Shown here piece after piece: positions 10,313-55,860 of a DNA stretch of 64,000 bases. The position numbers and the translations under genes were made by a program. The notes under the pieces were generated by a model. That model saw nothing but the letters and a program-made list of their open reading frames with translations. It did no database searches and had not been told where the DNA came from. Every line of letters begins with the position of its first letter. Within the stretch, counting starts at the first letter, position 1. Source of the stretch: a virus; the IMG/VR virus record IMGVR_UViG_3300010370_000029, positions 1 through 64,000 of that record. The stretch is one strand, 5' to 3'.

Positions 10313-10843
10313 ATGCAATTTTTTCCTCATAATGTACCAATAAGCATTACCAATACCGCGGTAAGTGCAAGCTTAACACAAACGGCACAGTTTTTATATA
10401 ATTTAGGTACCATAGCAATTAATACCGCGAGTTTGGCACTTAATATTTCTGGGTCTACTGGTGCTAGTGGGTCGAACTATACCAAGACGGGTGCAACGGG
10501 TCCACAAGGATCGACCGGCCCATCTGGATATCGTGGAAATAGTGTGTATCTGTTATCTATAGCCAGAAGTACGGGGTCTAATACTGTGTGCTACACCACA
10601 GACGCTCTTGGTACCGCTACATTTAATGGGGTAAATTATACTTGTAATTACGGATTTGCACAAACCTATTACGCCAATGCGAGTTCATTAACGAACGGAG
10701 TAGTATTATATTATGATTCATCATGTTCATCACTCGCAGTTAACCTATCAAGTTTATCAGACCCAACAAGTAACGCGATATTCAATACCGATGGCGCTGG
10801 AACTATCACTCTCACCGGCAACACTTGCGCGAGCAGCATCTAA
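10313..10843 (+). CDS. Small collagen-segment virion protein (paralogue 2)
   Basis: MQFFP start, GATGPQGSTGPSGYRG, Cys-containing C-terminal domain. Confidence 0.6.
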   Translation: MQFFPHNVPISITNTAVSASLTQTAQFLYNLGTIAINTASLALNISGSTGASGSNYTKTGATGPQGSTGPSGYRGNSVYLLSIARSTGSNTVCYTTDALGTATFNGVNYTCNYGFAQTYYANASSLTNGVVLYYDSSCSSLAVNLSSLSDPTSNAIFNTDGAGTITLTGNTCASSI

Positions 10844-34355: not shown

Positions 34356-34420
34356 TATTTATTTATTCACCCCTAGCGTCGAGCCACCCACAGACGGGGC
34401 TCGGTTATAGAGACTCTCTT

Positions 34421-37400
34421 ATGAGAAAAATGTTGGAAATTCTTTTAGCAACTGCGATGTTGTCTACCTCCGCTTATGCGCAAATCACCAGCGGAATCCT
34501 TCGTGGTACGGTTAAAGATTTTACAGGTAGTACAATTGAAAATGCAAATGTTACTGTGGTCTTTGTTCCAACCAATCAACGAATTGTTACGAAAACGACA
34601 ACAGAAGGTCGGTTCACATTATCCAACTTAAAACCAGGTGGTCCATATACTGTATCGGTGACCGCATTGGGGTTCCGTCCAAAGTTTACGGATAATCTCA
34701 CAGTTCGTTTGGGTGAAGCAACAAGCACAGATATTGAAATGGAAAAAATTGTTGTAGTATTAAATCAAGTATCGGTTATTGCAGACGTAGCAGCACAGGC
34801 ACGTAAAGATGGTGCGGTGGCACAACTCAATCAAGAGAAGTTGCAAGTGCTTCCCACCCTATCTCGTAGTCTCCAAGATATGACCCGTATGACCCCACAA
34901 GGTAACGGGGTTTCTTTTGCGGGTTCCAACTATCGGTATAACAACTTGACGATTGATGGAGCAGCATCGAATGATGCGTTCGGATTCAGTCAATCATCAG
35001 GTCAATCCACCGCATCAGTTCCAACGGGAACACCTGGTTCTCTTTCACGTTCACAACCTATTTCGCTTGACGCCATCGAACAAGTATCTGTGGTCATCGC
35101 ACCCTATGATGTGAAGATTGGTAATTTCACAGGTGGTAGCGTGAATGCAGTTACTCGTTCAGGTACCAACACCACCGAAGGTTCCATCTACTCATTCGGT
35201 CGTGTTCCACAATTTATCGGTGATGGTATCTCTGGTAAAATGCCAACCACCTTTAATGAATATCAAGCAGGTGGTCGTATCGGTGGTCCTATTATCAAGG
35301 ACAAGTTGTTCTACTTTTTGAATTTTGAAATTGCACGTAGAGCAGACCCTATCCTATTTGCACCTGGTAATCCAGGCGTGTTAGCCACGGAAGCAGTTGC
35401 ACAACAAGTTCGTGATAGTCTGGTGTCATTCGCAGCACGCTCTGGTGTTCCAAACTTTGATGCAGGAACCTTTGGGGCATATGATATTGAAGCAAATAGT
35501 GAAAAGTATTTCGGTCGTGTGGATTGGAATATTGGGAACTCTATCTTGACGGTTCGTAGTAATCTTGTCAATGCAGTCGCAGGAAACTTGGAACGTGGAC
35601 AAGCGCTCACCAAGTTAGCCTCACAAGACTTCGACCATTTCAGTAGAGCTACCAACACCGTTGCTGAATTGAAATCACAACTTGGAACAGGAGTATCTAA
35701 TAGTTTGTTGTTAGGATATTCACTTGTTCGTGACCACAGAAATCCATATGGTAATGTGTTCGCACCACAAATTGAAATCCAAGATATTCAGTTTGGTCAA
35801 ATCAATGCAGGTAGTGACCGTGAAGGGGTGGTGTATGGCACCAAAGTTCGCACCTATGAAGTGACTAACAATCTCACATGGTCTGTGGGGAAGCATACCC
35901 TTACCGCTGGTACTCACAATGAGTTCTACAATATTCAATACACCTTCGTGAATGGATACGCCGGTCGTTGGCAATACGCAAATCTCGCATCGTTCTTCGC
36001 AAATCGTCCTAATCGTATCAGAGCAACATTTGATTTGACGGATAATAGTTTAGATTATGTATTGAACAACCCAGGAGCAAACTTTAATATCACCGTTCCA
36101 AGTGTGTATATCCAAGACGAAGTATCTGTCACCGACAACTTCAAGGTGACCGCAGGGGTTCGTGCAGACTGGAATATGATGGATACACCAGTTCAAGCAG
36201 ATGCGTTTACGAACATCACTCTCACGAACGGCACCAAACCATATAGTACCATCACCAACGATTATAGTAGAAGTTTGTTGATTGGTCCTCGTTTCGGATT
36301 CAACTGGCAAACAGACAGAGTGACTTATCGTGGTGGGGTTGGATATTTTCAAGGAAGAATGCCGTTCGCATGGTATGCCTATCCATTCATCCACAACGGA
36401 TTGATTGTAGGAAACATTGATGCAAGACCAACCAATGTGGTTCCGTTGATTGTGGACCCACTTCGTCAAAGTTCATTGAGTAGCACCACGACATATGAAA
36501 TGAATGTGATCGGGAACAAGTATGTTCAACCACAGATGCGTAGAATGAACTTGGCAACAGACATCAAGTTACCATTTGATGCATTACTTGTACTGGATTG
36601 GACATTCACCAAGACATTAAACGACATCGTATTCACGAACATCGGATTACCCGCACCCGCAGGTAATCTCGCAGGTGGTGACCGCAGACCAGTCTACACC
36701 TCAACCAGATTAACAACCACTACAACTAATCCATACACATCAGTATTCGCACTCAATAATACTGATAAGGGTTACAGATACAACGTCACAGCAAATCTCA
36801 GTAAGAAGTGGGACCACCTTGATGTGATGGCAGCATATAGTTATGGGGAAGCAAAGGATTTGGCAAACGGTCAACGCAACTCGTTCCAATCACACGTGGA
36901 ATACAATCAATTGGTGAAGGGTAACCAATATGACCTCACGTGGTCTAACTTTGATATTCGTCATCGTTTCGTGGTGAATGGTAGTTGGAACTGGAAGAAC
37001 ACCACCGTATCAGCAGTCTATACAGGTTCATCAGGTTCACCATTCTCCTATGTGTATTCTGGTGATTTAAATGGTGACGGGTCAAGTCATAATGATTTGT
37101 TGTATGTTCCACGCAATATTGATGAAATCAAGTTGGTTCCATCTGCTCGTCCTACGGGTCAAGTAGATACCAGAACAGCACAACAAATCTGGGAAGATTT
37201 AGATAGATTCATCAGTAATGACCCATATCTGTCCTCACATCGTGGTGAATACACCAAGAGAAACGGTGCAAGAACTCCGTGGAATCACCGAGCAGATGTT
37301 CGTATCATCCAATCAGTCAAGAATGTAGATATTACATTTGACATCACTAACTTCGGTAATCTGTTGAACAAGGATTGGGGTAAGTATTATTTCGTTCCAA

Positions 37401-37558
37401 ATCTTAATAATCAAAATGTCTATCCACTCCAATATCGTTCAGGTCGTGGTGTGAATAGCGTTCCAACATTTAGTTTCGACCCACTAAATACCACTTATCA
37501 GACAGATGATTTAATGTCTCGTTGGCAGATGCAAGTGGGGATTCGAGTTAACTTCTAA
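34421..37558 (+). CDS. Oar-like TonB-dependent outer-membrane transporter with N-terminal carboxypeptidase-regulatory-like domain
   Basis: Signal peptide MRKMLEILLATAMLSTSAYA/Q; GTVKD..G..I..A.V, LKPGGPYTV; plug NNLTIDG..ND.FG, PISLDAIEQ...APYDV..GNFTGG.VNAVTRSGTN; barrel ends QVGIRVNF. Confidence 0.92.
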   Translation: MRKMLEILLATAMLSTSAYAQITSGILRGTVKDFTGSTIENANVTVVFVPTNQRIVTKTTTEGRFTLSNLKPGGPYTVSVTALGFRPKFTDNLTVRLGEATSTDIEMEKIVVVLNQVSVIADVAAQARKDGAVAQLNQEKLQVLPTLSRSLQDMTRMTPQGNGVSFAGSNYRYNNLTIDGAASNDAFGFSQSSGQSTASVPTGTPGSLSRSQPISLDAIEQVSVVIAPYDVKIGNFTGGSVNAVTRSGTNTTEGSIYSFGRVPQFIGDGISGKMPTTFNEYQAGGRIGGPIIKDKLFYFLNFEIARRADPILFAPGNPGVLATEAVAQQVRDSLVSFAARSGVPNFDAGTFGAYDIEANSEKYFGRVDWNIGNSILTVRSNLVNAVAGNLERGQALTKLASQDFDHFSRATNTVAELKSQLGTGVSNSLLLGYSLVRDHRNPYGNVFAPQIEIQDIQFGQINAGSDREGVVYGTKVRTYEVTNNLTWSVGKHTLTAGTHNEFYNIQYTFVNGYAGRWQYANLASFFANRPNRIRATFDLTDNSLDYVLNNPGANFNITVPSVYIQDEVSVTDNFKVTAGVRADWNMMDTPVQADAFTNITLTNGTKPYSTITNDYSRSLLIGPRFGFNWQTDRVTYRGGVGYFQGRMPFAWYAYPFIHNGLIVGNIDARPTNVVPLIVDPLRQSSLSSTTTYEMNVIGNKYVQPQMRRMNLATDIKLPFDALLVLDWTFTKTLNDIVFTNIGLPAPAGNLAGGDRRPVYTSTRLTTTTTNPYTSVFALNNTDKGYRYNVTANLSKKWDHLDVMAAYSYGEAKDLANGQRNSFQSHVEYNQLVKGNQYDLTWSNFDIRHRFVVNGSWNWKNTTVSAVYTGSSGSPFSYVYSGDLNGDGSSHNDLLYVPRNIDEIKLVPSARPTGQVDTRTAQQIWEDLDRFISNDPYLSSHRGEYTKRNGARTPWNHRADVRIIQSVKNVDITFDITNFGNLLNKDWGKYYFVPNLNNQNVYPLQYRSGRGVNSVPTFSFDPLNTTYQTDDLMSRWQMQVGIRVNF

Positions 37559-40890: not shown

Positions 40891-41009
40891 GGCACCGCAG
40901 TTGGTCGGGACAACGATAGTATGACACGGGCGCTACCCGAGGTTACAAGCATACTATGCTAGCCAAGGACTAGGTGAGAGCCTAGATGGGTTCGAATCCC
41001 ACGGTGCCA
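40891..41009 (+). ncRNA. tRNA-like RNA with non-canonical anticodon region
   Basis: Acceptor GGCACCG/CGGTGCC+A; D-arm GTTG/CAAC; T-arm TGGG-TTCGAAT-CCCA; 8-bp ATAGTATG/CATACTAT stem closing a branched loop; extra hairpin CTAGG-TGAGAG-CCTAG. Confidence 0.75.
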
Positions 41010-41024
41010 CTTTACGAGGAAACT

Positions 41025-41390
41025 ATGGAAGATAAAAAGAATCCAAATGCGTTAACCTATGGGATATCCCCAAGTGCTCCCGCATCAATTAAACCAGTAG
41101 AAGTGGATAAGTGGGTCGGCAAAGTCGAACCCACTTTTAAGCATTATTATGAGGAACGATATAACGATTTGGTTAGACAATACGAAGAGTTGGTCAAGGA
41201 TTACGAAATCAATAAGATGTGTTATGAAGCCTCGCTTGGGTTTGAACCAAATATAGGGCAGGTCTACCACTTGTATCGTAAGGGTGATGGTAGTACATTT
41301 CTATCAATCGTAGAACCACAATACGCATTTTGGGGTAATCATATTGGTAGTTATAGATTGAACGCTCAATATGCATGGGAACAAGTCTAA
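41025..41390 (+). CDS. DUF2452-like protein
   Basis: L.Y...PSAP..IKP, FEP.IGQVYHLY, FLSIVEP..W; GAGGA RBS. Confidence 0.7.
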   Translation: MEDKKNPNALTYGISPSAPASIKPVEVDKWVGKVEPTFKHYYEERYNDLVRQYEELVKDYEINKMCYEASLGFEPNIGQVYHLYRKGDGSTFLSIVEPQYAFWGNHIGSYRLNAQYAWEQV

Positions 41391-41974
41391 TGGCGTTACA
41401 AGGATACACCGTCGAGCACATCAGCTTTTCCGATACTGTCCGTTCTTTTTTACGGAAATGGCACTATTCGGATTATGTCAATATTCAAGAAAAACACACT
41501 TTTGGATTATTTCGTGAGGGTGTGTTTTTACCTGAACTGGTTGGGATATGTATTTATACTAGGCCGGCAGGACCAAGTGCCGCGCAGAAGTATTATCCAC
41601 AAGACCCCGATAAATGTCTGGAACTCAGGCGATTGTGTTTAGTGGATGATACTCCAAAGAACGCTGAAAGTTTCTTTGTGAGTCGGACATTAAAGTGGTT
41701 ACGAAAAAATACGGATTGGAAGTTTGTCGTAAGTTATGCTGACCCAGAGCAAGGACATAAAGGTATCATCTATCGGGCAGCTAACTTTAAGTATGAAGGT
41801 ATCACCGCGCCTGGGTCATCACTACTGGTAGATGGGAAACCTTTTCACATTAGAACCTTGACAATGTTGGACCGTCCGTATGGAGTAGAAATCAATCAAC
41901 GATATAAAGCTGGCGACCCCGGCGTACAGATTATAAAGACGGAACCTAAGCATATTTACACATATCAACTCTAG
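41390..41974 (+). CDS. Mom-like GNAT DNA-modification protein (copy 1)
   Basis: WHYS, FGLF, LELRRLCL...PKNAESFFVS, VSYADPEQGHKGIIYRAANF. Confidence 0.8.
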   Translation: MALQGYTVEHISFSDTVRSFLRKWHYSDYVNIQEKHTFGLFREGVFLPELVGICIYTRPAGPSAAQKYYPQDPDKCLELRRLCLVDDTPKNAESFFVSRTLKWLRKNTDWKFVVSYADPEQGHKGIIYRAANFKYEGITAPGSSLLVDGKPFHIRTLTMLDRPYGVEINQRYKAGDPGVQIIKTEPKHIYTYQL

Positions 41975-41983
41975 GAGGAAAGT

Positions 41984-42340
41984 ATGGGCATGTTCGACAC
42001 ACTAAAAGTAGAAACAAAGATTCCAGGACATTCAGATGTTCCTCTTGGAGAATTTCAAACGAAGAGTCTGGACTGTACACTAGATTATTATGTTATAACA
42101 AATAATGGTGAATTATACAAGGAAGTTTGGGACTATGCATGGGTAGATGACCCCAACTCAGCGTTTAATGGGTATTTTGATAAAGTAGAAGGTAGTTATC
42201 GCCGGGAGTACTTGACAAACTTCCACGGAGATATTATATTTTATAATGGTGAAGTGGTGGGTGGGAAGTGGAGAGATTATACCGCTCGATTCACCGAAGG
42301 TAAATTAACAAGAGTTTGGTACGAAGATAAACAACTTTAA
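41984..42340 (+). CDS. Conserved-looking phage hypothetical protein
   Basis: MGMFD, FQTKSL, ARFTEGKL; AGGAGG RBS. Confidence 0.65.
   Translation: MGMFDTLKVETKIPGHSDVPLGEFQTKSLDCTLDYYVITNNGELYKEVWDYAWVDDPNSAFNGYFDKVEGSYRREYLTNFHGDIIFYNGEVVGGKWRDYTARFTEGKLTRVWYEDKQL
42212..42240 (+). promoter_or_regulatory. Intragenic sigma70-type promoter upstream of the sliding clamp
   Basis: TTGACA-17-TATATT. Confidence 0.7.
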
Positions 42341-42354
42341 AGAGGTTAAAGGTT

Positions 42355-43074
42355 ATGGAAAAGTCAAAGCTGGAAAGGTTCATTTCAAAGTATAACATCG
42401 GCGGAGCATGTGAGAGCGTCAAGTGTGTATCTAATGGTACAGAGATGACTGTTCGCTCTATTTCTGATGACAAGAATGTATTGGCTGAGGTGACCAGCCA
42501 CGATATCGGATTCCCCGAGGGTGAGTTCAGTATCTATGAGACGAAGAAGCTTCGTTCGCTTCTTGGTGTACTTGGAGAGAAGCTGAAGGTCGCTGCAAAT
42601 AGTTCGTCGAATAAGGTTATCGGATTGAATCTTTCTGACTCCGATACGAAGGTGACGTTCGTTCTGGCGGATGAGTCGGTCATTCCGAAGGTTCCCGACT
42701 TAAAGAAGCTCCCGCCGGTGGATATCGAAATTGTCCTTGATGACAAGTTTGTGAACACGTTCGCTCGTGCGAAGGGCGCTCTGTCTGAGGTGGATACGTT
42801 CACCGTGATGAGTGATGGTACGGATGCGACTGTTGTAATCGGCTACTCGACGTTGAATACGAACCGCGTCAATATCAAGACTACGACCAAGACGAATACG
42901 AAGATTGACCCGATTAGTTTCTCCGCTAACTATTTGAAGGAAGTGCTACTGTCGAACAAGGAAATCAAGGATGGTATCTTGAAGGTCAGTTCGAAGGGTA
43001 TCGCTGTTGCGGAATTCGTGGGTGAGGCGTTCACCTCGAAGTATTTCCTCGTCCAAATTGACACGAAGGACTAA
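42355..43074 (+). CDS. Sliding clamp (gp45/PCNA-like)
   Basis: 239 aa; F.IY....L..LL pattern, FSANYLKE, KVSSKGIA..F....SKYFL C-terminus; clamp-loader genes nearby. Confidence 0.75.
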   Translation: MEKSKLERFISKYNIGGACESVKCVSNGTEMTVRSISDDKNVLAEVTSHDIGFPEGEFSIYETKKLRSLLGVLGEKLKVAANSSSNKVIGLNLSDSDTKVTFVLADESVIPKVPDLKKLPPVDIEIVLDDKFVNTFARAKGALSEVDTFTVMSDGTDATVVIGYSTLNTNRVNIKTTTKTNTKIDPISFSANYLKEVLLSNKEIKDGILKVSSKGIAVAEFVGEAFTSKYFLVQIDTKD

Positions 43075-44255
43075 TGGCCGGCTTCGACGATTTCTTTGAT
43101 ACACCCAAGTTTGATTTCGACAAGGAGAAACAGCTCTTTGTCGAAAACTTGGACATGCTTAAGAGTATGTCTGTTCAAGAACAAACCTTGTACAAGAAGT
43201 ATAAGGAAGTAAATGGGTATTATCAGAATTCGTTTGATAAGGCTCGTATTGTCAAGGCGAAGATTTGGACGCCTACTGACCTGAACAATAAGGAACAGAC
43301 TGTCAAGGAAATACAAGCCCTTCAGCCCCGTATCCGTCTGGTGATGTCAAAGACCACCGACGAAATGGATTGGAATATGATTCGGGTGTTCTCGCATACA
43401 ATGGAGTTTGACCAGAATCCCGGTCGGTTTGTGCGATTCCTTGTTTATGATGAGGTAACGGGGAAGTATCTTGGTGCGACTTCTTTGGGGAGTGACGTTA
43501 TCGCTATCGGCTGCCGTGATGAATGGATTGGATGGGATAAGGATACGAAGCTGAAGGGGAAGTTGAATAATTCCGCCATCGGTACTTGTATTATGGCTAC
43601 CCAGCCGTTCGGATATAATTTCTTGGGCGGGAAGCTTGTTGCTTCGATGTTGACTACGAAGGTTGTTGCCGATACGTGGGAAAAGATGTACAACAACGTT
43701 TTGGCTGGACTCACCACGACTTCACTGTATGGGTCTGAGTCTATGTACAATTCTATTCCGTTCTGGAAGAAGTTGGGGTCAAGTACTGGTGCGATTGGTA
43801 TCAAGCCCGATGATGATGTCTATGGCAAGTGGCATGACTATCTGAAGCAGAACAAGCCCGACGAGTATAAGGAACGATTCGTCAAGGATGACCCATCGAA
43901 GGGACCGGTCACTGGTATTAAGCAACAAATCATTTCGATGATTTTCCGTGAAGTGGGAGTCGGTGCGAGTAAGTACAAGCACGGCTTTGAACGTGGTGTA
44001 TATTACGCTCCCCTTTACGAGAATACCCGTGAATTCCTGCGTGGGGAAATTGAGAAGGATAAGCTCATTCCCTTGACAAAGCTGAAGGACGATGTAGATT
44101 CCGTATTGAATTGGTGGAAGCCGAAGGCTATCGCCCGATATGAGAAGTTACATGAAGAAGGTCGGACAAAGGATGGTATTCTGTATTATACTAATATGAT
44201 TGGAATTAGTTGGGATGAGGCAAAGCGTATCTATCTTCCAGAGGTCGGCAGATGA
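43074..44255 (+). CDS. DruA/DUF4338-like protein (probable GNAT-related DNA-acting enzyme)
   Basis: PGRFVRFLVYD..TGKYLG..SLGS, RDEWIGW, QPFGYNFLGGKLVA, TTTSLYG..S.YN, LG.STG. Confidence 0.7.
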   Translation: MAGFDDFFDTPKFDFDKEKQLFVENLDMLKSMSVQEQTLYKKYKEVNGYYQNSFDKARIVKAKIWTPTDLNNKEQTVKEIQALQPRIRLVMSKTTDEMDWNMIRVFSHTMEFDQNPGRFVRFLVYDEVTGKYLGATSLGSDVIAIGCRDEWIGWDKDTKLKGKLNNSAIGTCIMATQPFGYNFLGGKLVASMLTTKVVADTWEKMYNNVLAGLTTTSLYGSESMYNSIPFWKKLGSSTGAIGIKPDDDVYGKWHDYLKQNKPDEYKERFVKDDPSKGPVTGIKQQIISMIFREVGVGASKYKHGFERGVYYAPLYENTREFLRGEIEKDKLIPLTKLKDDVDSVLNWWKPKAIARYEKLHEEGRTKDGILYYTNMIGISWDEAKRIYLPEVGR

Positions 44256-45361
44256 GTTTTTTTGAAACAACGGTTGACATATCAAAATGTAAAAAGGTAT
44301 TGGTAATCCCCAATATTACTAATTCTGCGAATATCGAAAAGGACTCCTTCGTGGATGTTATCTATAATCATATTCGAGCATTAGAAAAGCTTGGGGATTA
44401 TTATTGGCACATCCTACTTCCAGAGCCCGTAGCAAAGCTCAATTTGGAAAACGTCAAGCAACATATCGTAGACATCTCTGGCGATATGATTCATATGCGG
44501 GTAACGTTTCCACGAAAGGCTATCACGCTAATTCAAGAGCTGGAGTATGATGTAGTCTATTCACATCTTCCTGACTGGTTTATGGTCAAGCGATATACCG
44601 ATAAACCAATCGTCGGATATGCACATTGGTGGGAAATGAAATCGTGTAATGCTGAAGATAGAAAGAATCGTCAGCGGAATATCGTGGCAGAATTGCTGGG
44701 TGTGATGGGGATGAAGGTGTGTTATCTGAATACCCAAGACCAAAAGAATCGGGTATTGGATGAGGCTCGGCAATGGTTTAATGATGAAAAGGTTCAAGAG
44801 CTGGACAGAATTCTCCAAGTCTGGCATTTGGGTGTTCCCGAAGGAAAGATTATTTCCGCTCCTACTGAAAAGGAAAAGATTATTGTATTCAATCATCGTG
44901 CCGCTGCATACAAGGGATATCCGCAATTTATTGAGCTAATAAAAGAGTATCGTGAGTCCAGACAAGACTTTGTGGTATGGGTTCCACAGCTGGAAGGAAA
45001 GCCGGAAGAATCGTGGATTGACAATACCAAAGTCCCGAAGCATGAGTACTATACCCGACTCCAGCGTTGCTCCGTAGGAATCCAAATGCGCCAATCAAAC
45101 TATGGATGGAGCGTGGCAGCCACGGATTGTATGATGAATGGTACTGCGGTTATTTTCCAAGAGTCTGACTGCTATCACGAAATTGACCCCGATGGTCTAT
45201 TCTTCAAGTTTAAAAAGGATTTATTTGCTACGCTGGATAAGTTTTTGGACGATACGACATTTCGTCACGAACAAGGTGTACGAAGTATCCAACGTACAAA
45301 GGAATTGCAAGATAAAGAAAATAATATGTTATTATTGTTAAACGATAATTTAAGTACTTGA
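44252..45361 (+). CDS. GT-B fold glycosyltransferase
   Basis: YDVVYSHLP, IVFNHR....KG, YGWSVAATDCMMNG; ATGA-coupled to the DruA-like gene. Confidence 0.7.
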   Translation: MSFFETTVDISKCKKVLVIPNITNSANIEKDSFVDVIYNHIRALEKLGDYYWHILLPEPVAKLNLENVKQHIVDISGDMIHMRVTFPRKAITLIQELEYDVVYSHLPDWFMVKRYTDKPIVGYAHWWEMKSCNAEDRKNRQRNIVAELLGVMGMKVCYLNTQDQKNRVLDEARQWFNDEKVQELDRILQVWHLGVPEGKIISAPTEKEKIIVFNHRAAAYKGYPQFIELIKEYRESRQDFVVWVPQLEGKPEESWIDNTKVPKHEYYTRLQRCSVGIQMRQSNYGWSVAATDCMMNGTAVIFQESDCYHEIDPDGLFFKFKKDLFATLDKFLDDTTFRHEQGVRSIQRTKELQDKENNMLLLLNDNLST

Positions 45362-45386
45362 CAATAGCCAACAATTGTATTAGATT
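45358..45386 (+). promoter_or_regulatory. sigma70-type promoter
   Basis: TTGACA-17-TAGATT. Confidence 0.65.
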
Positions 45387-45465
45387 TAATATGTTACAAA
45401 GATTACTCTTTTTGTGCCACAGAGCAATCTTCTAAATCAACGGCACTAAAACAAAAGGAGAAGTT

Positions 45466-47133
45466 ATGGCTGGGCTGACCCTCGTATCATCAGGAGCAAA
45501 CGTCAAGTCGTGGACGTTTGATAAAATTTCTAAGGAGTATAGTACTACTCTCGTAGACACGCCAAAGTATCAGCGACCGGATGTGTTCGGCTTTGTACGG
45601 AACGGCAGCGGTAGTAATTGGCAGCGTAATCTCATCCGTTCTATTTTGATGGGCAATCCCATCCCTCAGCTCCACTTTCGCTACGTATTCTCAAAGGGGC
45701 CAAATGGTCTAGAGTGGAAGTATGAGATTGTGGACGGAGGACATCGCACACGTACTGTATATTACTTTCTAAACAATTGCATTAAAACTCCAATTGACTG
45801 TACGCTTACCGATGTTGACGGGAACCAGTACAACATTGGTGCTATGCATCTTTCACAGATTATACAGAAGTATCCTGTGCTAGAGGATTACATCTATAAT
45901 CTTTCTCTTAGCGTTGTAGAGTATGAAAATCTCACCGATGATGATGCAGAAACACTTTTTCTTACTCTTAATGATTTGAACAAGATGTCTCCCGCTGACA
46001 AGCGGAACGCTATTAATAATATTATTGCGGATACGAACCGTAATCTTGGTGCGGTTGACTCCCCTAACGCTTTTTCGATGTTCACCAGCCGTTCATTCAT
46101 TAAGAACGATTGGAAGGCTGACTACACCAGCTTGGATGCAGTCAGCCGAGAGTCGGATGAAATTGTATCGTGGGCGATGTACTATCTATACAGCGGTGGT
46201 ATATTTGCAAAAGACTCCAGCGGAAAGCCGCGGTTCGCGGGTATGGACGCCCAATCAGTTCTCGACAAGATGTATCGTGACGAGTATCTTATGAGGGAGT
46301 TGGCGGTACCGGGGTCTAAGATGGAAAAGAATCTGCGGTCACTACTGTCAATTGTTAATAATATTGTCGTTAAGAATCCGCGTCTTGATATTTTTAAAAA
46401 GGGCGGAAAGTGGTTCGCTGGTCCTCTAAAGAAGCTTATTATGCTAGTCGCTGAGATGCACAATGTAAACGGTACTTTTAACTTTAGTAAAGTTAAAATT
46501 AATACCGACGACTTCTTTACCTCTTTCAATCGAGCGACCAGCGAACTGAAGAACGACAAGAACGTAAAGCCACACCTGCCATACCAGTCGTATATGCTGG
46601 TAAACAACAAGGTTCACGTAAATAGCGTTCAGCCGGATAATGTTGGTGATACAATATATCCGTTCCATAAAGTGTTTACGGGAGGCGCTCGACTTGACGA
46701 TATGCTGTACATCTATTATCATTACGTCACCAAGGGTTATATGAATTTTGGAGTTACGAAATTGGATAAGCGTCGAGACTTTAATAAGGATATCGTAGAT
46801 ACTCTACTCACGGAACAGAAGAATTGCTGCCGGTTTTGCTCAAAGTTACTCACGGATGGTAATTACGCGGTAGACCACATTGCTCCGCATTCTTTTGGTG
46901 GACCTACAATTCTGGAAAACAGCCAGATTCTCTGTTCTTCTTGTAACGGTCAGAAGTCGAATGGCATGACACTCCAAGATGTGGTACATCTCTGTGAGAG
47001 AATGAACGTAGACGTTCAACTTAAGGAAGTTGTAGTTGGACTGGCTCACGCAGTTATTACCTCTGGCGCAACTGACCGACTCTCGGAAGGTGATATCCGT
47101 ACAGTAATTAAGCTGGTATTTGGCAAACAATAA
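45466..47133 (+). CDS. DUF262 (ParB-like) + HNH nuclease, GmrSD/SspE-like architecture
   Basis: PKYQR, W...LI.SIL.G.PIP, IVDGGHR, FLTLN; C-terminal CRFC...DHIAPHSFGG....NSQILCSSCNGQKS. Confidence 0.8.
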   Translation: MAGLTLVSSGANVKSWTFDKISKEYSTTLVDTPKYQRPDVFGFVRNGSGSNWQRNLIRSILMGNPIPQLHFRYVFSKGPNGLEWKYEIVDGGHRTRTVYYFLNNCIKTPIDCTLTDVDGNQYNIGAMHLSQIIQKYPVLEDYIYNLSLSVVEYENLTDDDAETLFLTLNDLNKMSPADKRNAINNIIADTNRNLGAVDSPNAFSMFTSRSFIKNDWKADYTSLDAVSRESDEIVSWAMYYLYSGGIFAKDSSGKPRFAGMDAQSVLDKMYRDEYLMRELAVPGSKMEKNLRSLLSIVNNIVVKNPRLDIFKKGGKWFAGPLKKLIMLVAEMHNVNGTFNFSKVKINTDDFFTSFNRATSELKNDKNVKPHLPYQSYMLVNNKVHVNSVQPDNVGDTIYPFHKVFTGGARLDDMLYIYYHYVTKGYMNFGVTKLDKRRDFNKDIVDTLLTEQKNCCRFCSKLLTDGNYAVDHIAPHSFGGPTILENSQILCSSCNGQKSNGMTLQDVVHLCERMNVDVQLKEVVVGLAHAVITSGATDRLSEGDIRTVIKLVFGKQ

Positions 47134-47147
47134 AATAGGAATATTCT

Positions 47148-48062
47148 ATGACAGAAAACACGTTGTGGATTGAGAAGTATCGCCCGAACACATTGGAAAA
47201 CTATATTGGGAACGATGCCCTAAAGGCGAAGTTGGCTGATTATATTTCCAAGCAGGATATCCCGCATCTTTTATTCTATGGAACTGCGGGTACGGGTAAG
47301 ACCACCGCTGCCAAGATTTTATTAAAGAATATTGAGTGTGATTCGCTCAGTATCAACGCTTCTGATGAGCGTGGTATTGATGTGATTCGGGAAAAGATTA
47401 AGAACTTTGCGTCCACATCGGGGTTTGCTCCGTTGAAGATTGTATTCTTGGATGAGGCCGATTATCTGACACCAGACGCTCAGGCCGCACTTCGTAATAT
47501 GATGGAAGTGTTCAGTCACCGTACAAGGTTTGTGCTGACTTGTAATTATGTGGAACGTATTATTCCTGCGATTATCAGTCGGTGTCAGACCTCGGCATTG
47601 ATTCCACCGTCGAAGAAAGATGTGGCGGTACATCTCACTCACATCTTGACGAAGGAGCAGGTGACATTCGAGAAACAGGCGATTGCTACCTTGGTTAATG
47701 CTTATTATCCTGATATTCGTCGGATTATTGGTACCGCTCAGTTACAGACCCGTGATGGGAAGCTGGTCATCAATGTTCACGAAGTTATCGCTGGAGATAG
47801 TAAGTTGAAGATTCTGGATACTTTGACCAGTAATCAACCATCCGCTAGTAAGATGAATGAGATTCGTCAGATTGTGACTGACGCTGGGATTCGTGACTTT
47901 ACTGAACTGTATCGGCTGCTTTATGATAAGGTTCAAGAGTATGCGTCCGACCGAATCCCACAGACGATTCTCGCTCTCGCAGAAGGTCAATATCGTGACG
48001 CATTTGTAGTAGATAAAGAAATTAATTTTATGGCAACGATGTATAACATTTTAATGTACTAA
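47148..48062 (+). CDS. Clamp loader AAA+ subunit (RFC/gp44)
   Basis: WIEKYRP, GTAGTGKTT, NASDERG, LDEADYL, QAALR, SRC, PDIRR. Confidence 0.95.
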   Translation: MTENTLWIEKYRPNTLENYIGNDALKAKLADYISKQDIPHLLFYGTAGTGKTTAAKILLKNIECDSLSINASDERGIDVIREKIKNFASTSGFAPLKIVFLDEADYLTPDAQAALRNMMEVFSHRTRFVLTCNYVERIIPAIISRCQTSALIPPSKKDVAVHLTHILTKEQVTFEKQAIATLVNAYYPDIRRIIGTAQLQTRDGKLVINVHEVIAGDSKLKILDTLTSNQPSASKMNEIRQIVTDAGIRDFTELYRLLYDKVQEYASDRIPQTILALAEGQYRDAFVVDKEINFMATMYNILMY

Positions 48063-48071
48063 GAGGAAATT

Positions 48072-48401
48072 ATGACCAGTAAGTTTATCCCGCCCGACCC
48101 GCGCCAGATGCGTAATCAGCAGGCACCTGACCTTTCATTGGCTACCGATATTGTCTGTGAGAATTGCGGTAATCTGACTTTCCAAGAAGTTCTCTTGATG
48201 AAGAAGGTATCCGCTCTCGTCTCACCAAACGGTAAGGAAGGAATTGTTCCTATTCCGACATTTTCTTGCGTAGCATGTGGATATGTGAACAAGATGTTCC
48301 GTCCGGTGACTCCGGCCGGCGCAGAAGAGCCGACCGAAGCGACTCGTACAGAAGCGGCTGAACCAGAGCCCACTCGTCCGAAGCTCGTATTAGAGGACTA
48401 A
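48072..48401 (+). CDS. Zinc-ribbon protein
   Basis: CENCG...CVACG. Confidence 0.65.
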   Translation: MTSKFIPPDPRQMRNQQAPDLSLATDIVCENCGNLTFQEVLLMKKVSALVSPNGKEGIVPIPTFSCVACGYVNKMFRPVTPAGAEEPTEATRTEAAEPEPTRPKLVLED

Positions 48402-49246
48402 TGGAAACAACCTTCGTTGAGACTTCCCGTGTCACGGTGCGAGAAATATCGAAATCCGTGGCACGAGATTTCATTCAGACTCATCACTATACACATAAGT
48501 TCAGTTCCACCCGATATGCCCTTGGGGTATTTTATGTGGAAGATGCCGAACATATATTCTTTGCTGGTGCGAACGAGAAGCTCATTGGGTGTATGACCTA
48601 TGGGCATCCCGTCAGCAATAGAACGGTGGATAGTATTGTGGATGGATTGGAACTTGACGAAGTGCTAGAATTGACCCGCTTGGTGTGCTTGGACGGATAT
48701 GGAAAGAATCTGGAAAGTTTTGTGATTTCCAAATCGTTTGAGTGGATGAAGAAGCATGACCCCAAGGTGAAAGTCTTGGTCAGTTATGCTGACCCCGAAC
48801 AAGCACATACCGGCGGGATTTATCGGGCAACGAATTGGCTGTATCAAGGATGTGGGTATTCCAAGTTGATGCCAGATTTCAGTATCCGAATCAATGAAGA
48901 TGACCTCTGGACGCATAGCCGTACCGTTGGAGCCCGTTGGGGTAATAAGTCGGTGGATAATCTGGCAAAGACTATTGGTCAAACCTTCTATAGAAAAGAA
49001 GAAACGGCAAAACATCGGTATATCTATTTCCTTTGTGGGAAGAAGGAACGGAAACGGATGATAAAGGAATTAAAGATTCCCGTGTTCGGATATTCAGAAA
49101 TCAAGCCGTATACCCAACTGATTCAGAAGGTGCATGTAAAGGATGGAGTAGTTGAACGTATTGAAATCCTGCAAGGGGTTGACAATGGCTGGTCAAACAA
49201 ACAGATTGTAATGCAGGAGGATGAAGATGGCGAAGACTCTATTTGA
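48401..49246 (+). CDS. Mom-like GNAT DNA-modification protein (copy 2)
   Basis: HHYTH, LELTRLVC...KNLESFVIS, VSYADPEQAHTGGIYRATNW, KHRY. Confidence 0.82.
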   Translation: METTFVETSRVTVREISKSVARDFIQTHHYTHKFSSTRYALGVFYVEDAEHIFFAGANEKLIGCMTYGHPVSNRTVDSIVDGLELDEVLELTRLVCLDGYGKNLESFVISKSFEWMKKHDPKVKVLVSYADPEQAHTGGIYRATNWLYQGCGYSKLMPDFSIRINEDDLWTHSRTVGARWGNKSVDNLAKTIGQTFYRKEETAKHRYIYFLCGKKERKRMIKELKIPVFGYSEIKPYTQLIQKVHVKDGVVERIEILQGVDNGWSNKQIVMQEDEDGEDSI

Positions 49247-49658
49247 CCACATTAATGCAATTTATCAAGACCAGAAGAAGAACTATTTCGCTGGATTGGA
49301 CGATGGGGAGAAACGGACCTATAGTAACTATATGGTCAACCGATTCCTCAGTATGAACATTCATCAGCTTCCGCTGGTCAATGAGATACAAAAATACAAT
49401 TTACCATCCGATGTTCACTATTTATTCTTTGCGACCACGATTCCTCGCGGGAAGCAATATAACAAATATGTAAAGTCAAAGAACGAAACCAAGTATGAAG
49501 GTTGGTTAGTCACACTGGTTTCGAAGCATTTTACTGTGTCTGAAAGTGAAGCGATGATGTATTTGGATATTTATTATGGGGAACATAAGGACGCCCTTCG
49601 GAGTTTATGTGAGGGGTATGGAATCGATAACAAAACACTAAAGAAAGCTAAGCTATGA
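49227..49658 (+). CDS. Clamp loader small subunit (gp62-like)
   Basis: LFDHINAI, YMVNRFLS, VNEIQKY, HYLFF....PRGK.Y.KY.K; AGGAGG RBS. Confidence 0.7.
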   Translation: MAKTLFDHINAIYQDQKKNYFAGLDDGEKRTYSNYMVNRFLSMNIHQLPLVNEIQKYNLPSDVHYLFFATTIPRGKQYNKYVKSKNETKYEGWLVTLVSKHFTVSESEAMMYLDIYYGEHKDALRSLCEGYGIDNKTLKKAKL

Positions 49659-50173
49659 CAGTAGCAACAGCAGAGAGAATGGTTACTATGGTTAAATTGA
49701 CTTGGGCAGAATACTTCCGAAAAATCGCACATACAGTTAAACTGAAGTCGAAGGATAAGACTACCCAGATTGGTGCGGTTATTGTCGGTTCCAATAATGA
49801 AATCCGTTCTACGGGATACAATTCATTTCCACGTGGGATTGAAGATTTCCGTGAAGAACGGCAGGAACGTCCAGAGAAATATTATTGGATGGAACATGCT
49901 GAGCGAAATGCAATTATCAACGCCGCTCGTATTGGTGTATCAACCGACCGTTGTATTTTATTCCTAACGTGTGACATTCCATGCGTTGATTGCACTCGTG
50001 CGATTATCAATTCTGGAATCAAGATTATATTCTGTGAACGTGGTGAAGGGGCAAAGGGTGACCACTGGAACGAACATACCCAACGTAGTATACAGATGTT
50101 ACAAGAAGCAAAGTGCACCGTTCATTATTATGGTGAAATAAAACCTTTTATTAATATTGGTGAACTACAATGA
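49655..50173 (+). CDS. dCMP deaminase
   Basis: SKD..TQIGAVIV, STGYN.FPRG, HAERNAI, PCVDC. Confidence 0.93.
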   Translation: MTVATAERMVTMVKLTWAEYFRKIAHTVKLKSKDKTTQIGAVIVGSNNEIRSTGYNSFPRGIEDFREERQERPEKYYWMEHAERNAIINAARIGVSTDRCILFLTCDIPCVDCTRAIINSGIKIIFCERGEGAKGDHWNEHTQRSIQMLQEAKCTVHYYGEIKPFINIGELQ

Positions 50174-55835: not shown

Positions 55836-55860
55836 TAATTTTTACGATAGAGAGTATATT

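What the first reader, a model, noticed from the sequence alone, without database searches (positions are those of the whole stretch)
41390..50173. Candidate new replication-coupled DNA hypermodification system: two Mom-like GNATs, DruA-like protein, GT-B transferase and DUF262-HNH among the clamp genes
Seen order: Mom-1, hypothetical, clamp, DruA-like, GT-B, DUF262-HNH, clamp loader, Zn ribbon, Mom-2, gp62-like, dCMP deaminase, with many stop/start overlaps. Known: Mu Mom is a GNAT that carbamoylmethylates adenine; T4 glucosyltransferases are GT-B enzymes acting on DNA; DUF262+HNH proteins (GmrSD, SspE) discriminate DNA by modification. Inference: several base-modifying enzymes, perhaps acylation followed by glycosylation, act on nascent DNA with the clamp, and the nuclease removes DNA with a different modification state. 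This is the best candidate here for an undescribed system.
Basis: partly seen in the sequence, partly recalled or inferred. Interest (0 to 1): 0.8.

Follow-up and report, generated by a model that had tools for sequence, protein, structure and literature searches.

The report
Phage DNA-modification genes among replication genes
An uncultured T4-like water phage keeps two Mom-type adenine-modifying enzymes, a third enzyme of similar fold (DruA family), a sugar transferase and an exchangeable DNA-cutting gene among its sliding-clamp genes; together they probably make a DNA decoration that has not been described, but its chemistry is untested.

Summary
All eleven genes are at the stated coordinates, in the stated order, with the stated stop/start overlaps. 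The "clamp" is the only weakly supported call.

Mom x2, a DUF262-HNH nuclease, the GT-B transferase and a DruA-family gene travel together in many divergent T4-like viral contigs, in several different gene orders. That argues for one functional module.

- Mu Mom is now known to use Gly-tRNA(Gly) on finished double-stranded DNA, not an acyl-CoA.
- DruA is a GNAT whose best structural match is Mu Mom, but it shows no detectable sequence relation to Mom.
- The nuclease slot is swapped in the window's closest relatives, so the nuclease is an exchangeable partner.
- dCMP deaminase is ordinary T4-type nucleotide metabolism.

The interleaving with clamp genes is mostly explained by insertion into the conserved T4 gene block 43-45-44-62. 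However, DruA and GT-B carry floppy N-terminal FF tips like the polymerase's C-terminal tail, so clamp tethering is plausible. It could not be tested.

A covarying, anticodon-less tRNA-like RNA sits just upstream of Mom-1 and may be its private aminoacyl donor.

This scan has found the same module before on other DNA, in at least six follow-ups. I found no paper describing it.

The parts
40891..41009 (+). 119-nt tRNA-like RNA without a canonical anticodon loop. It has a 7-bp acceptor stem, a D arm, an 8-bp helix in place of the anticodon arm, a long variable arm and a TTCGAAT T-loop. It is a candidate private aminoacyl donor for Mom-1.
   Evidence: ARAGORN and Rfam find nothing here. Six distinct variants from viral contigs give 26 consensus pairs, 11 of them with compensatory double-sided changes and 1 broken cell. 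The element lies directly upstream of a Mom-1-type gene, or of DUF2452 followed by Mom-1, in 6 of the 11 loci fetched by its D-arm sequence that hold DNA downstream of it, and in the window itself.
41025..41390 (+). DUF2452 protein, function unknown. The likely start is 41025, after a GAGGA ribosome-binding site; the longer ORF from 40986 would overlap the RNA.
   Evidence: PF10504, E 1.3e-8, 34.9 bits. ESM-Atlas look-alike clusters are 92-100% DUF2452. It travels with Mom-1 and the tRNA-like RNA, in either order.
41375..41974 (+). Mom-1, a short (about 195-203 aa) Mom subfamily and predicted aminoacyl-tRNA-dependent adenine-N6 modifier.
   Evidence: PF25680, E 1.4e-35. Matches PDB 8bv8 (Mu Mom), E 1.8e-10. 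Keeps Mu residues H58, Y59, R111, S124, D149 and Y159; R151 is replaced by Glu.
41984..42340 (+). Hypothetical 118-aa protein, conserved only in the closest clade.
   Evidence: phrog_1615, E 1.5e-6, unknown function. Present in L004-L011 and L048.
42355..43074 (+). Probable gp45-type sliding clamp.
   Evidence: No family hit. hhalign to the HTVC008M processivity factor gives E 5.9e-4 over 183 columns. hhalign to a PF09116-positive gp45 of L114 gives E 9.5e-4 over 188 columns. It lies between PolB and gp44 in the relatives that hold both.
43074..44255 (+). DruA-family (DUF4338) GNAT with a Mom-like fold and a floppy N-terminal FF tip.
   Evidence: PF14236, E 1.6e-33. AF2 model has pLDDT 94.5. 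Best VIA-align match is Mu Mom 8bv8_A: Z 10.1, 179 aligned residues, rmsd 4.1; generic GNATs reach Z 9.2 or less. An N-terminal aromatic pair is present in 58 of 75 distinct homologues.
44252..45361 (+). GT-B (GT4-like, retaining type) glycosyltransferase with an N-terminal SFF tip.
   Evidence: AF2 model has pLDDT 85.8. Foldseek matches MshA, PglA, BshA and PimA, and also the phage HY126 glycosyltransferase (PDB 9iqz), at E 1e-11 to 1e-10. It abuts the nuclease gene in 15 further viral loci.
45466..47133 (+). DUF262 (ParB/Srx-fold, DGGHR motif) plus HNH nuclease, with a 104-nt leader of its own. It is the exchangeable member of the module.
   Evidence: Pfam GmrSD_N 39.7 bits and HNH 33.5 bits. 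Motifs read. Absent from the closest relatives L005-L011 and L048. Homologues at 28-44% identity abut GT-B elsewhere.
47148..48062 (+). gp44-type clamp-loader large subunit (replication core, not a modification gene).
   Evidence: phrog_168, E 3e-80; Pfam AAA and DNA_pol3_delta2.
48072..48401 (+). Zn-ribbon protein (CxxC...CxxC), conserved between gp44 and gp62 in the relatives that hold both.
   Evidence: Translation. 37 homologues at the same position.
48401..49246 (+). Mom-2, a full-length Mom with an acidic C-terminal extension.
   Evidence: PF25680, E 8.1e-47. Matches 8bv8, E 9.6e-8. Same active-site pattern as Mom-1. 34% identical to Mom-1.
49221..49658 (+). gp62-type clamp-loader small subunit (replication core).
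   Evidence: PF16790, E 2.1e-12; phrog_225, E 2.4e-24.
49655..50173 (+). dCMP deaminase. This is T4 cd-type nucleotide metabolism and is not counted as part of the module.
   Evidence: PF00383, E 1.5e-18. Seen only in the closest clade.

Best explanation
This is a conserved phage DNA-modification module inserted into the gaps of the T4-type replication gene block (polymerase, clamp, clamp loader).

Shown here:
- Two Mom paralogs keep most of the residues needed by Mu Mom.
- A DruA-family protein has a Mom-like GNAT fold.
- A GT4-like GT-B transferase and a DUF262-HNH nuclease recur next to these genes in many divergent relatives.

Inferred:
- The Mom enzymes take an amino acid from a charged tRNA, or from the tRNA-like RNA encoded just upstream of Mom-1. 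They put it on N6 of adenine in newly made double-stranded phage DNA.
- DruA and GT-B add to or vary this decoration, with a second acyl or aminoacyl group and a sugar.
- The polymerase-like aromatic tips of DruA and GT-B dock them on the sliding clamp, so that they work close to the fork, as reported for T4 alpha-glucosyltransferase.
- The nuclease spares decorated phage DNA and cuts undecorated host or rival DNA. Because any such nuclease will do, it is exchanged between strains.
For: - Family and active-site evidence for both Moms.
- Mom mechanism from PMC13219725: Gly-tRNA(Gly), double-stranded DNA, post-replicative; R111 and S124 essential.
- DruA fold: pLDDT 94.5, and the top match is Mu Mom at Z 10.1 with 179 aligned residues. 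Independently, cyanophage S-SCSM2R ORF152, a DruA homologue by my tblastn, was called structurally Mom-like in PMC12801897. DUF4338 is called a GNAT in PMC10853773.
- DNA-context fusions of DruA: ParB_N-DruA, UDG-DruA and DruA-GIY-YIG.
- Linkage:
  - 16 of 22 nuclease relatives have GT-B within 0-50 nt (15 of them within 0-11 nt); Mom x2 lies upstream of the nuclease in 8 of the loci; DruA is next to the nuclease or between clamp and gp44.
  - DruA lies between clamp and gp44 in 25 of 79 loci, and between clamp and GT-B in 8 of 79.
  - In a further T4-like clade, the gp45|gp44 slot holds Mom plus a nucleotidyltransferase/mannose-6-P-isomerase gene.
- Swapped nuclease slot: a GHKL-ATPase with a weak Mrr-like match in L011, and an unknown 439-aa ORF in L005-L010.
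- Terminal peptides: PolB ends in EWFSF, DruA starts MAGFDDFFD, GT-B starts MSFFE. Both tips have low pLDDT.
- Precedent: T4 alpha-GT binds gp45 (PMC13216743).
- tRNA-like RNA: covariation and linkage to Mom-1.
Against: - No chemistry was measured. No modified base is known for any member of this phage group.
- DruA and Mom show no sequence-profile similarity (hhalign probability below 1%). Mom's structural lead over generic GNATs is under 1 Z unit, which the tool counts as a tie.
- R151, essential in Mu Mom, is Glu here.
- GT-B matches cellular GT4 enzymes as well as it matches the phage HY126 enzyme, and the phage has about ten other transferases.
- DruA often occurs without Mom or GT nearby: 34 of 79 loci have other neighbours, for example UvdE and a RimK-type ATP-grasp gene. 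In Pelagibacter phages it also stands apart.
- The closest relatives lack this nuclease.
- Mu Mom needs no replisome, and the window's own Mom-1 and Mom-2 lack aromatic tails.
- Many loci come from near-identical phages, so the counts overstate independent events.
Confidence: 0.5

Rival explanations
1. These are independent accessory genes that merely share the plastic gaps of the T4-type replication block. Each Mom makes the ordinary Mu-type N6-carbamoylmethyl-adenine on its own. GT-B belongs with the phage's large glycan or surface-sugar gene set. DruA acetylates a protein or counters a host defence. The nuclease is a selfish or anti-competitor add-on.
For: - The gene order differs between clades.
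- The nuclease slot is swapped in close relatives.
- DruA is frequent without Mom or GT neighbours.
- The window holds further GT4 genes and a sugar pathway at 54432 onward.
- Mu Mom works alone (PMC13219725).
Against: The same four or five families end up adjacent again after rearrangement, at nuclease identities of only 28-44%. Gaps of 0-11 nt between nuclease and GT-B point to co-translation. ParB_N-DruA and UDG-DruA fusions tie DruA to DNA.
Confidence: 0.25
2. GT-B glycosylates a hydroxylated or hydroxymethylated pyrimidine made by genes outside the window, as in T4, RB69 and HY126. The Mom enzymes then provide an unrelated second protection.
For: - The GT-B model matches the phage HY126 glycosyltransferase (PDB 9iqz), E 1.6e-10. 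I infer that this is HY126's 5-hydroxycytosine arabinosyltransferase, because PMC13326640 reports arabinosylated 5-hydroxycytosine in HY126 DNA; the identity of the solved chain was not checked.
- The record is only 46% complete.
- Thymidylate-synthase-family genes exist in 2 of 5 larger relatives.
Against: There is no thymidylate-synthase-family gene in the 87-kb record. Three of the five larger relatives lack one, including one that is 84% complete. The hit in G001 scores like an ordinary ThyA (311 bits). GT-B is linked to Mom, DruA and the nuclease, not to any pyrimidine-modifying gene seen here.
Confidence: 0.1
3. The DUF262 (ParB-fold) part of the nuclease protein is an activator or loader for the modifying enzymes, like the ParB partners of phage thymine dioxygenases, rather than a restriction enzyme that reads the modification. 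This reading can coexist with the main one.
For: - ParB-fold proteins activate phage 5mYOX enzymes (PMC13229309).
- ParB_N-DruA fusions exist (P0132 at 28.0 bits, above the cut-off; P0136 below it).
- The nuclease gene always abuts GT-B.
Against: The HNH motif with its Zn-binding cysteines is intact. The slot is filled by unrelated nuclease-like genes, or left empty, in close relatives that keep Mom, DruA and GT-B. So the modifying enzymes do not need this protein.
Confidence: 0.1

Closest known systems
Bacteriophage Mu Mom (PF25680; PDB 8bv8; Silva et al. 2026, PMC13219725)
   Same: Both window Moms score far above the Pfam cut-off and align to 8bv8. They keep H58, Y59, R111, S124, D149 and Y159, and the stretch that aligns with the HTH-like insertion. 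The expected chemistry is aminoacyl transfer from a charged tRNA to N6 of adenine in double-stranded DNA.
   Different: There are two paralogs (34% identical) plus a DruA-type third GNAT. R151, essential in Mu, is Glu. There is no Com-type regulator. The genes sit in a lytic T4-like replication block, next to a glycosyltransferase, a nuclease and a tRNA-like RNA. The donor amino acid and the product are unknown.
Multi-Mom jumbo phages and Mom-REase fusions predicted by Iyer, Aravind and co-workers (PMC7824862)
   Same: Several Mom genes in one large phage (PA5oct has five), and Mom coupled to an endonuclease as a phage-borne modification-plus-restriction pair.
   Different: Here the nuclease is a separate DUF262-HNH gene in an exchangeable slot. 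The constant partners are a GT-B transferase and a DruA-family GNAT, which that survey does not describe.
T4 hmC glucosylation (alpha-GT and beta-GT) with host-DNA nucleases; alpha-GT binding to gp45 (PMC13216743)
   Same: The same logic: post-replicative sugar transfer to phage DNA, a DNA-modifying transferase that binds the sliding clamp, and phage nucleases that spare modified DNA.
   Different: No hydroxymethyl-pyrimidine pathway was found in the record. GT-B is GT4-like and is not of the T4 alpha-GT (PF11440) or beta-GT (PF09198) families. The putative acceptor would be an adenine adduct. Clamp binding is inferred only from N-terminal FF tips.
DruA of Druantia type I (PF14236/DUF4338) and DruA-like genes of T4-like cyanophages and pelagiphages
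   Same: Clear family membership (Pfam E 1.6e-33; PADLOC DruA1 E 1e-26). The same family is present in Pelagibacter phages Mosig and HTVC008M and in about 25 Synechococcus phage records. The Phold preprint (10.1101/2025.08.05.668817) notes DruA-like proteins in Synechococcus phages.
   Different: It is not part of a DruABCDE operon and is encoded by a phage. No function is known for DruA in any setting.
GmrSD / BrxU / SspE (DUF262 plus a His-Me-finger nuclease)
   Same: An N-terminal DUF262 ParB-fold domain above the Pfam cut-off and a C-terminal His-Me-finger nuclease, an architecture used to tell DNA apart by its modification.
   Different: The C-terminal domain is a classical HNH (PF01844), not DUF1524. 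There is no PADLOC GmrSD or BrxU hit, only a weak NsnA match. The motif is DGGHR instead of the DGQQR that I recall, from memory, as typical of DUF262. The gene is phage-encoded, and the expected polarity (cutting unmodified DNA) would be the reverse of GmrSD.

Membership tests
Mom (PF25680) | Pfam profile match above the curated cut-off (27.1 bits) | tested here: met
   Mom-1 scores 123.2 bits and Mom-2 159.9 bits. Both also hit phrog_1384 and PDB 8bv8.
Mom (PF25680) | Residues needed for Mu Mom activity: H58, Y59, R111, S124, D149, R151 and Y159 (PMC13219725) | tested here: inconclusive
   Six of the seven are invariant in the Mu/Mom-1/Mom-2 alignment. R151 is Glu in both window proteins and varies across the relatives.
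Mom (PF25680) | Uses Gly-tRNA(Gly) and makes N6-carbamoylmethyl-adenine in double-stranded DNA | not testable with these tools
   Needs nucleoside mass spectrometry and in vitro reconstitution.
DruA (PF14236, DUF4338) | Profile match above the cut-off (27 bits) | tested here: met
   116.6 bits, E 1.6e-33. PADLOC DruA1 E 1.1e-26.
Druantia type I defence system | DruA encoded together with DruB, DruC, DruD and the DruE helicase | tested here: not met
   The neighbours are the clamp, GT-B, the nuclease and the clamp loader. No DruB-E-like gene appears. This is a phage genome.
GNAT superfamily (for the DruA-like protein) | GNAT fold | tested here: met
   AF2 model pLDDT 94.5. 184 PDB chains, essentially all GNATs, reach Z 8 or more, led by Mu Mom at Z 10.1. 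Foldseek probabilities for GNATs are 0.9-1.0.
GmrSD | N-terminal DUF262 (PF03235) | tested here: met
   39.7 bits against a cut-off of 33.2.
GmrSD | C-terminal DUF1524 nuclease domain | tested here: not met
   The C-terminus matches HNH PF01844, PF14279 and PF13395. There is no DUF1524 hit and no PADLOC GmrSD or BrxU hit.
GmrSD | Cleavage that depends on DNA modification | not testable with these tools
   Needs a nuclease assay on modified and unmodified DNA.
GT-B glycosyltransferase (GT4-like) | Two-Rossmann GT-B fold with a nucleotide-sugar-binding C-terminal half | tested here: met
   Foldseek matches MshA, PglA, GlgM, BshA and PimA at E 2e-11 to 1e-9, with TM up to 0.71. Pfam GT4 and GT1 matches are below their cut-offs.
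DNA glycosyltransferases of phages | DNA base as the acceptor | not testable with these tools
   Only context bears on this: abutment with the nuclease gene and linkage to Mom and DruA, and a fold match to the phage HY126 glycosyltransferase (PDB 9iqz) that is no better than the matches to cellular GT4 enzymes.
T4 gp45-type sliding clamp | Profile match to PF09116 or PF02916, or to a solved clamp | tested here: inconclusive
   No Pfam, PHROG, NCBIfam or PDB sequence hit. Weak full-length hhalign matches to two gp45 proteins, at probability 22-29%. An ESM-Atlas lead. Conserved position between PolB and gp44.
T4 gp44/gp62 clamp loader | AAA+ large subunit and PF16790 small subunit | tested here: met
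   phrog_168 E 3e-80; PF16790 E 2.1e-12.

The most novel reading that the evidence does not exclude
These phages build a compound adenine hypermodification that has not been described. A Mom enzyme loads an amino acid from a phage-encoded, anticodon-less tRNA-like carrier onto N6 of adenine. The DruA-type GNAT and the GT-B transferase then extend it with an acyl or aminoacyl group and a sugar. The enzymes ride on the sliding clamp through FF/FW tips, and an exchangeable nuclease destroys DNA that lacks the mark.
Probability: 0.15. Interest if true: 0.85.

Novelty: new variant of a known kind. Interest (0 to 1): 0.62.

Why it matters
Only one adenine hypermodification made by a Mom enzyme is chemically known, and its tRNA-dependent mechanism was published only in 2026.

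This module is common in uncultured aquatic T4-like phages. The DruA-like gene alone has about 3,500 homologues in metagenomes.

If the module makes a new aminoacyl and/or glycosyl base, three things follow:
- The known chemistry of DNA would widen.
- DruA, a defence-system component with no known role, would get its first function.
- The enzymes could become tools for site-specific DNA decoration.

It would also give a testable case of DNA-modifying enzymes tethered to a sliding clamp, and of a private tRNA-like donor working outside translation.

Tried and rejected
Searches that found nothing:
- Megablast of the 8.8-kb region against 50,697 phage records: no match.
- hhalign of the DruA profile against the Mom profile, full length and GNAT core only: probability below 1%. 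The 'third Mom' label therefore rests on fold alone.
- BLASTP of DruA against Mom-2: nothing.
- PDB sequence searches with DruA, the clamp profile, the GT-B profile and DUF2452: nothing useful.
- NCBIfam: nothing for the clamp, DruA, GT-B, the Zn ribbon or the 118-aa ORF.
- ARAGORN and Rfam (E up to 1) over 38-52 kb: nothing.
- PADLOC: no GmrSD or BrxU model hit for the nuclease.

Ideas tested and dropped:
- The 591-aa ORF that sits between Mom x2 and GT-B in clade 2 (L049) is not detectably related to the nuclease family (hhalign probability 0.4%), and Pfam and PADLOC give no hit for it.
- A thymidylate-synthase-family gene as a source of an hm- or hydroxy-pyrimidine acceptor: absent from the record and inconsistent among relatives.
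- The nuclease as a fixed member of the module: rejected for the window's own clade.
- dCMP deaminase as part of the module: rejected, because it is seen only in the closest clade and is a standard T4 cd-type function.

Tools that did not run:
- Complex prediction (clamp with DruA) was not available.
I could therefore not inspect the contexts of nuclease homologues P0281 and P0290, whose longest contigs have the same lengths as those of DruA homologues P0028 and P0029.

Full report
**What is there**

The window is the first 64 kb of an 87,473-base IMG/VR virus record that CheckV rates 46% complete. All genes of the finding lie on the + strand at the coordinates given.

Pfam and PHROGs confirm these calls:
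- Mom-1 (41375-41974; PF25680, E 1.4e-35)
- a DruA/DUF4338 protein (43074-44255; E 1.6e-33)
- a DUF262 (GmrSD_N) plus HNH protein (45466-47133)
- the gp44-type clamp loader (47148-48062; phrog_168, E 3e-80)
- Mom-2 (48401-49246; E 8.1e-47)
- the gp62-type subunit (49221-49658)
- dCMP deaminase (49655-50173)

The 109-aa ORF at 48072-48401 has two CxxC pairs.

The GT-B call rests on structure. Pfam GT4 and GT1 matches are below their cut-offs. An AF2 model (pLDDT 85.8) matches retaining GT4 enzymes (MshA, PglA, BshA, PimA) at E about 1e-11. It also matches the phage HY126 glycosyltransferase (PDB 9iqz). I take that to be HY126's 5-hydroxycytosine arabinosyltransferase on the strength of PMC13326640, but I did not check which enzyme the solved chain is.

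The 'clamp' (42355-43074) is the weakest call, because no family library or PDB sequence search hits it. What supports it:
- A profile of it and ten relatives aligns end to end with the processivity factor of Pelagibacter phage HTVC008M (E 5.9e-4, 183 columns).
- The same profile aligns with a PF09116-positive gp45 from locus L114 (E 9.5e-4, 188 columns).
- It lies between PolB and gp44 in the relatives that hold both.

Upstream lie PolB, a TonB-type outer-membrane protein and a ligase. Downstream lie a PD-(D/E)XK nuclease and more glycosyltransferases. The phage is therefore T4-like in its replication genes. The T4 order 43-45-44-62 (from established knowledge of T4) is the scaffold into which the other genes are inserted.

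**The Mom paralogs**

Silva et al. (Nat Commun 2026, PMC13219725) showed the following for Mu Mom:
- It transfers glycine from Gly-tRNA(Gly) to N6 of adenine in double-stranded DNA after replication.
- The adduct rearranges to N6-carbamoylmethyl-adenine.
- R111, S124 and R151 are essential. D149A greatly reduces activity. H58, Y59 and Y159 matter. An HTH-like insertion is required.

I aligned the Mu protein with both window proteins. H58, Y59, R111, S124, D149 and Y159 are invariant. R151 is Glu in both and varies among relatives. Both proteins align to the crystal structure 8bv8.

Mom-1 and Mom-2 are 34% identical. Mom-1 belongs to a consistently short subfamily of 194-203 aa, so it is not a truncated gene.

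The likely donor is a charged tRNA.

**DruA**

PMC10853773 calls DUF4338 a GNAT domain. Profile-profile comparison of 49 DruA homologues with 20 Mom homologues finds nothing (probability 0.7%).

Structure gives a clearer answer:
- The AF2 model is excellent (pLDDT 94.5, pTM 0.90).
- VIA-align ranks Mu Mom 8bv8_A first (Z 10.1, 179 aligned residues, rmsd 4.1).
- Generic GNATs follow at Z 9.2 or less with 134-164 aligned residues.
- Independently, the authors of cyanophage S-SCSM2R called ORF152 structurally Mom-like (PMC12801897). My tblastn shows that this ORF is a DruA-family homologue (H39).

The family is very large in metagenomes: 3,508 proteins at E up to 0.001 and 1,104 representatives at 50% clustering.

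Some members are fused to DNA-handling domains:
- ParB_N (P0132 at 28.0 bits, above the cut-off; P0136 below it)
- a UDG-superfamily domain (P0146, 35.3 bits)
- DUF3102
- GIY-YIG

Cultured carriers are Pelagibacter phages Mosig and HTVC008M and about 25 T4-like Synechococcus phage records. In the two Pelagibacter phages inspected, the gene sits in the replication/recombination region without Mom or GT next to it.

**Is the linkage conserved?**

I made three scans of IMG/VR and labelled the ORFs with iterated profile searches.

1. DruA-centred scan, 80 loci at 48% identity or more.
- The closest relatives (L005-L011, L048) repeat the window's order: Mom-1, 118-aa ORF, clamp, DruA, GT-B, [slot], gp44, Zn ribbon, Mom-2, gp62.
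- A second clade reads Mom, Mom(, Mom), a 591-aa ORF, GT-B, PolB, (short DruA paralog), clamp, DruA, gp44, Zn ribbon, gp62, PD-(D/E)XK, GT4, GT4.
- A third clade reads DruA, (DUF262-HNH), GT-B.
- A fourth clade has DruA between UvdE plus a RimK-type ATP-grasp gene and unknown ORFs.
- Overall, DruA lies between clamp and gp44 in 25 of 79 loci, and between clamp and GT-B in 8.

2. Nuclease-centred scan, using a 26-sequence alignment.
- Of 22 non-self loci, 16 have GT-B within 0-50 nt of the nuclease gene, 15 of them within 0-11 nt.
- GT-B then abuts PolB by 0-1 nt in the loci that extend that far.
- Two Mom genes lie upstream of the nuclease in L122 and L126-L132.
- L132 reads Mom, Mom, DruA, nuclease, GT-B, PolB, clamp, gp44.

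3. Mom-2-centred scan. A further T4-like clade (L101-L120) has gp45, redoxin, Mom, a cytidylyltransferase/mannose-6-P-isomerase gene, gp44, gp62, RegA and PolB. So Mom plus a sugar-nucleotide enzyme occupies the very slot that holds DruA plus GT-B in the window.

The same families thus come together in at least five different orders, at low pairwise identity. This is the main argument for a shared function.

One caveat applies to all the counts. Many loci come from near-identical phages, so the counts overstate the number of independent events.

**The nuclease**

The protein has a ParB-fold DUF262 domain with a DGGHR motif and an intact HNH motif with Zn-binding cysteines. It is not a canonical GmrSD: there is no DUF1524 domain and no PADLOC GmrSD or BrxU hit.

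Only one IMG/VR contig, the same phage from another sample, has this exact gene. In the window's closest relatives the slot between GT-B and gp44 varies:
- an unrelated 439-aa ORF in L005-L010
- a 519-aa GHKL-ATPase with a weak Mrr-like match in L011
- nothing in L048

The nuclease is therefore an exchangeable partner and not a fixed half of the system. Its homologues nevertheless abut GT-B in distant clades.

The most economical reading is a phage nuclease that spares decorated DNA, analogous to the T4 nucleases that degrade cytosine-containing DNA (established knowledge). A second reading comes from the finding that ParB-fold proteins activate phage thymine dioxygenases (PMC13229309). On that reading the DUF262 part would help the modifying enzymes. 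It is weakened because close relatives keep Mom, DruA and GT-B without this protein.

**Replication coupling**

The interleaving itself needs no special explanation, since accessory genes fill the gaps of the T4 core block. There is a further hint, however.

- PolB ends in EWFSF, and 20 of 23 PolB relatives end in an aromatic pair.
- DruA starts MAGFDDFFD, and 58 of 75 distinct homologues have an aromatic pair in the first 14 residues.
- GT-B starts MSFFE, and 16 of 32 homologues do likewise (MSFWE, MQFWE, MNIFNF and similar).
- Eleven of 32 Mom relatives end in FW, FF or WFG.
- The window's own Moms do not.

Both tips are low-confidence, floppy ends in the models. Only 7 of 68 gene-like ORFs of the window have such an end.

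T4 alpha-glucosyltransferase binds gp45 (Sommer et al. 2004, confirmed in PMC13216743). A clamp-docked DNA-modifying transferase therefore has a precedent. That same paper found the interaction not to be decisive for the alpha/beta ratio.

**The tRNA-like RNA**

ARAGORN and Rfam see nothing there.

A D-arm pattern fetched 13 viral loci, which give six distinct sequences. Their consensus fold has a 7-bp acceptor stem, a D arm, an 8-bp helix in place of the anticodon arm, a short variable-arm stem and a T arm. Of 26 pairs, 11 show compensatory double-sided changes and only one cell is broken.

In 6 of the 11 fetched loci that hold DNA downstream of the element, it is followed at once by a Mom-1-type gene, or by DUF2452 and then Mom-1, with the two genes in either order. 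The window has the same arrangement.

Mom uses a charged tRNA, so a private donor for Mom-1 is a reasonable idea. Its amino acid is unknown. The long variable arm and the A discriminator recall class II tRNAs, and it lacks the acceptor-stem pairs that I recall as typical of E. coli tRNA(Gly). This last point rests on my own knowledge and was not tested.

**What does not belong, and what is missing**

dCMP deaminase occurs only in the closest clade and is a standard T4 cd-type function. No thymidylate-synthase-family gene is in the record. Two of five larger relatives have one, and the hit in G001 scores like a normal ThyA. So there is no sign of a hydroxymethyl- or hydroxy-pyrimidine acceptor, but an incomplete record cannot exclude one.

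**Comparison, novelty and verdict**

Multi-Mom phages and Mom-plus-endonuclease pairs have been predicted before (PMC7824862). DNA glycosyltransferases and phage nucleases that spare modified DNA are classical.

What is not in the literature I could search is this constant set: two Moms, a DruA-type Mom-like GNAT, a GT4-like GT-B and an exchangeable nuclease in the replication block of abundant aquatic T4-like phages, with a tRNA-like RNA next to one Mom.

The same module has been followed up by this scan on at least six other genomes, with the same conclusions. My tests agree with them independently.

I rate it a new variant of a known kind: phage DNA hypermodification with an associated nuclease. 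Confidence in a joint DNA-modification module is about 0.5. Interest is 0.62, because the chemistry is entirely untested but directly testable.

Noticed in passing
window 40891-41009: A 119-nt tRNA-like RNA without an anticodon loop. Across six variants, 11 of 26 pairs show compensatory changes. It is linked to Mom-1 and DUF2452 in either gene order. In L004/L121 (the same phage from another sample) the 5' acceptor strand is replaced by other sequence, so a recombination or assembly breakpoint lies inside the element.
   Followed up: yes
window 34352-37558: A complete TonB-type outer-membrane beta-barrel gene (PF25183, E 1e-39, with a CarboxypepD_reg domain) sits between the DNA polymerase and ligase genes. 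It is kept in close relatives L007 and L008 at 95-97% identity.
   Followed up: no
window 54432-57192 and beyond: Two further GT4-type transferases, one matching 'GT4-conflict' PF20706. They are conserved after the PD-(D/E)XK gene in clade 2 relatives. Whether they act on DNA or on glycans is open.
   Followed up: partly
L114 8546-12652 (and the L101-L120 clade): Another T4-like clade has gp45, redoxin, Mom, a cytidylyltransferase/mannose-6-P-isomerase fusion and gp44. So a Mom plus a sugar-nucleotide enzyme sit in the same gp45|gp44 slot.
   Followed up: partly
L067 1175-6691 (and about 20 similar loci): A fourth DruA context: the UvdE UV endonuclease, a RimK-type ATP-grasp ligase, a 180-aa ORF, DruA, then ORFs of 261, 83 and 241 aa of unknown function.
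   Followed up: partly
L011 12288-13847; L008 12295-13614: The slot that holds the DUF262-HNH gene in the window holds a GHKL-ATPase (HATPase_c_3, E 1e-10) with a weak Mrr-like end in L011. In L005-L010 it holds an unrelated 439-aa ORF without any family.
   Followed up: partly
L034, L037, L038, L040-L045, L050, L051, L046/L080: Short DruA paralogs (192-247 aa; PF14236 E 4e-8 to 7e-22) occur besides the full-length DruA. Some phages therefore carry two DruA-type and two or three Mom-type genes.
   Followed up: partly
window 4335-5276, 10313-10843, 13481-14227: Three further ORFs of the window have aromatic pairs at a chain end (LFFFDVAW, MQFFPHN, ATFFWPDF). They could be further clients of the same docking site, or chance.
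   Followed up: no
L015 about 3365, L025 about 4609, L081 about 388: Relatives carry sequences whose 3' ends look to me like tmRNA (a T-arm followed by ...CAGCTCCAC; recognised from memory, not tested), besides ordinary tRNA genes.
   Followed up: no
L037, L044, L045 (PolB region): The PolB gene is split into two ORFs (for example 500 plus 354 aa) in some relatives. This suggests an inserted element or a frame break.
   Followed up: no
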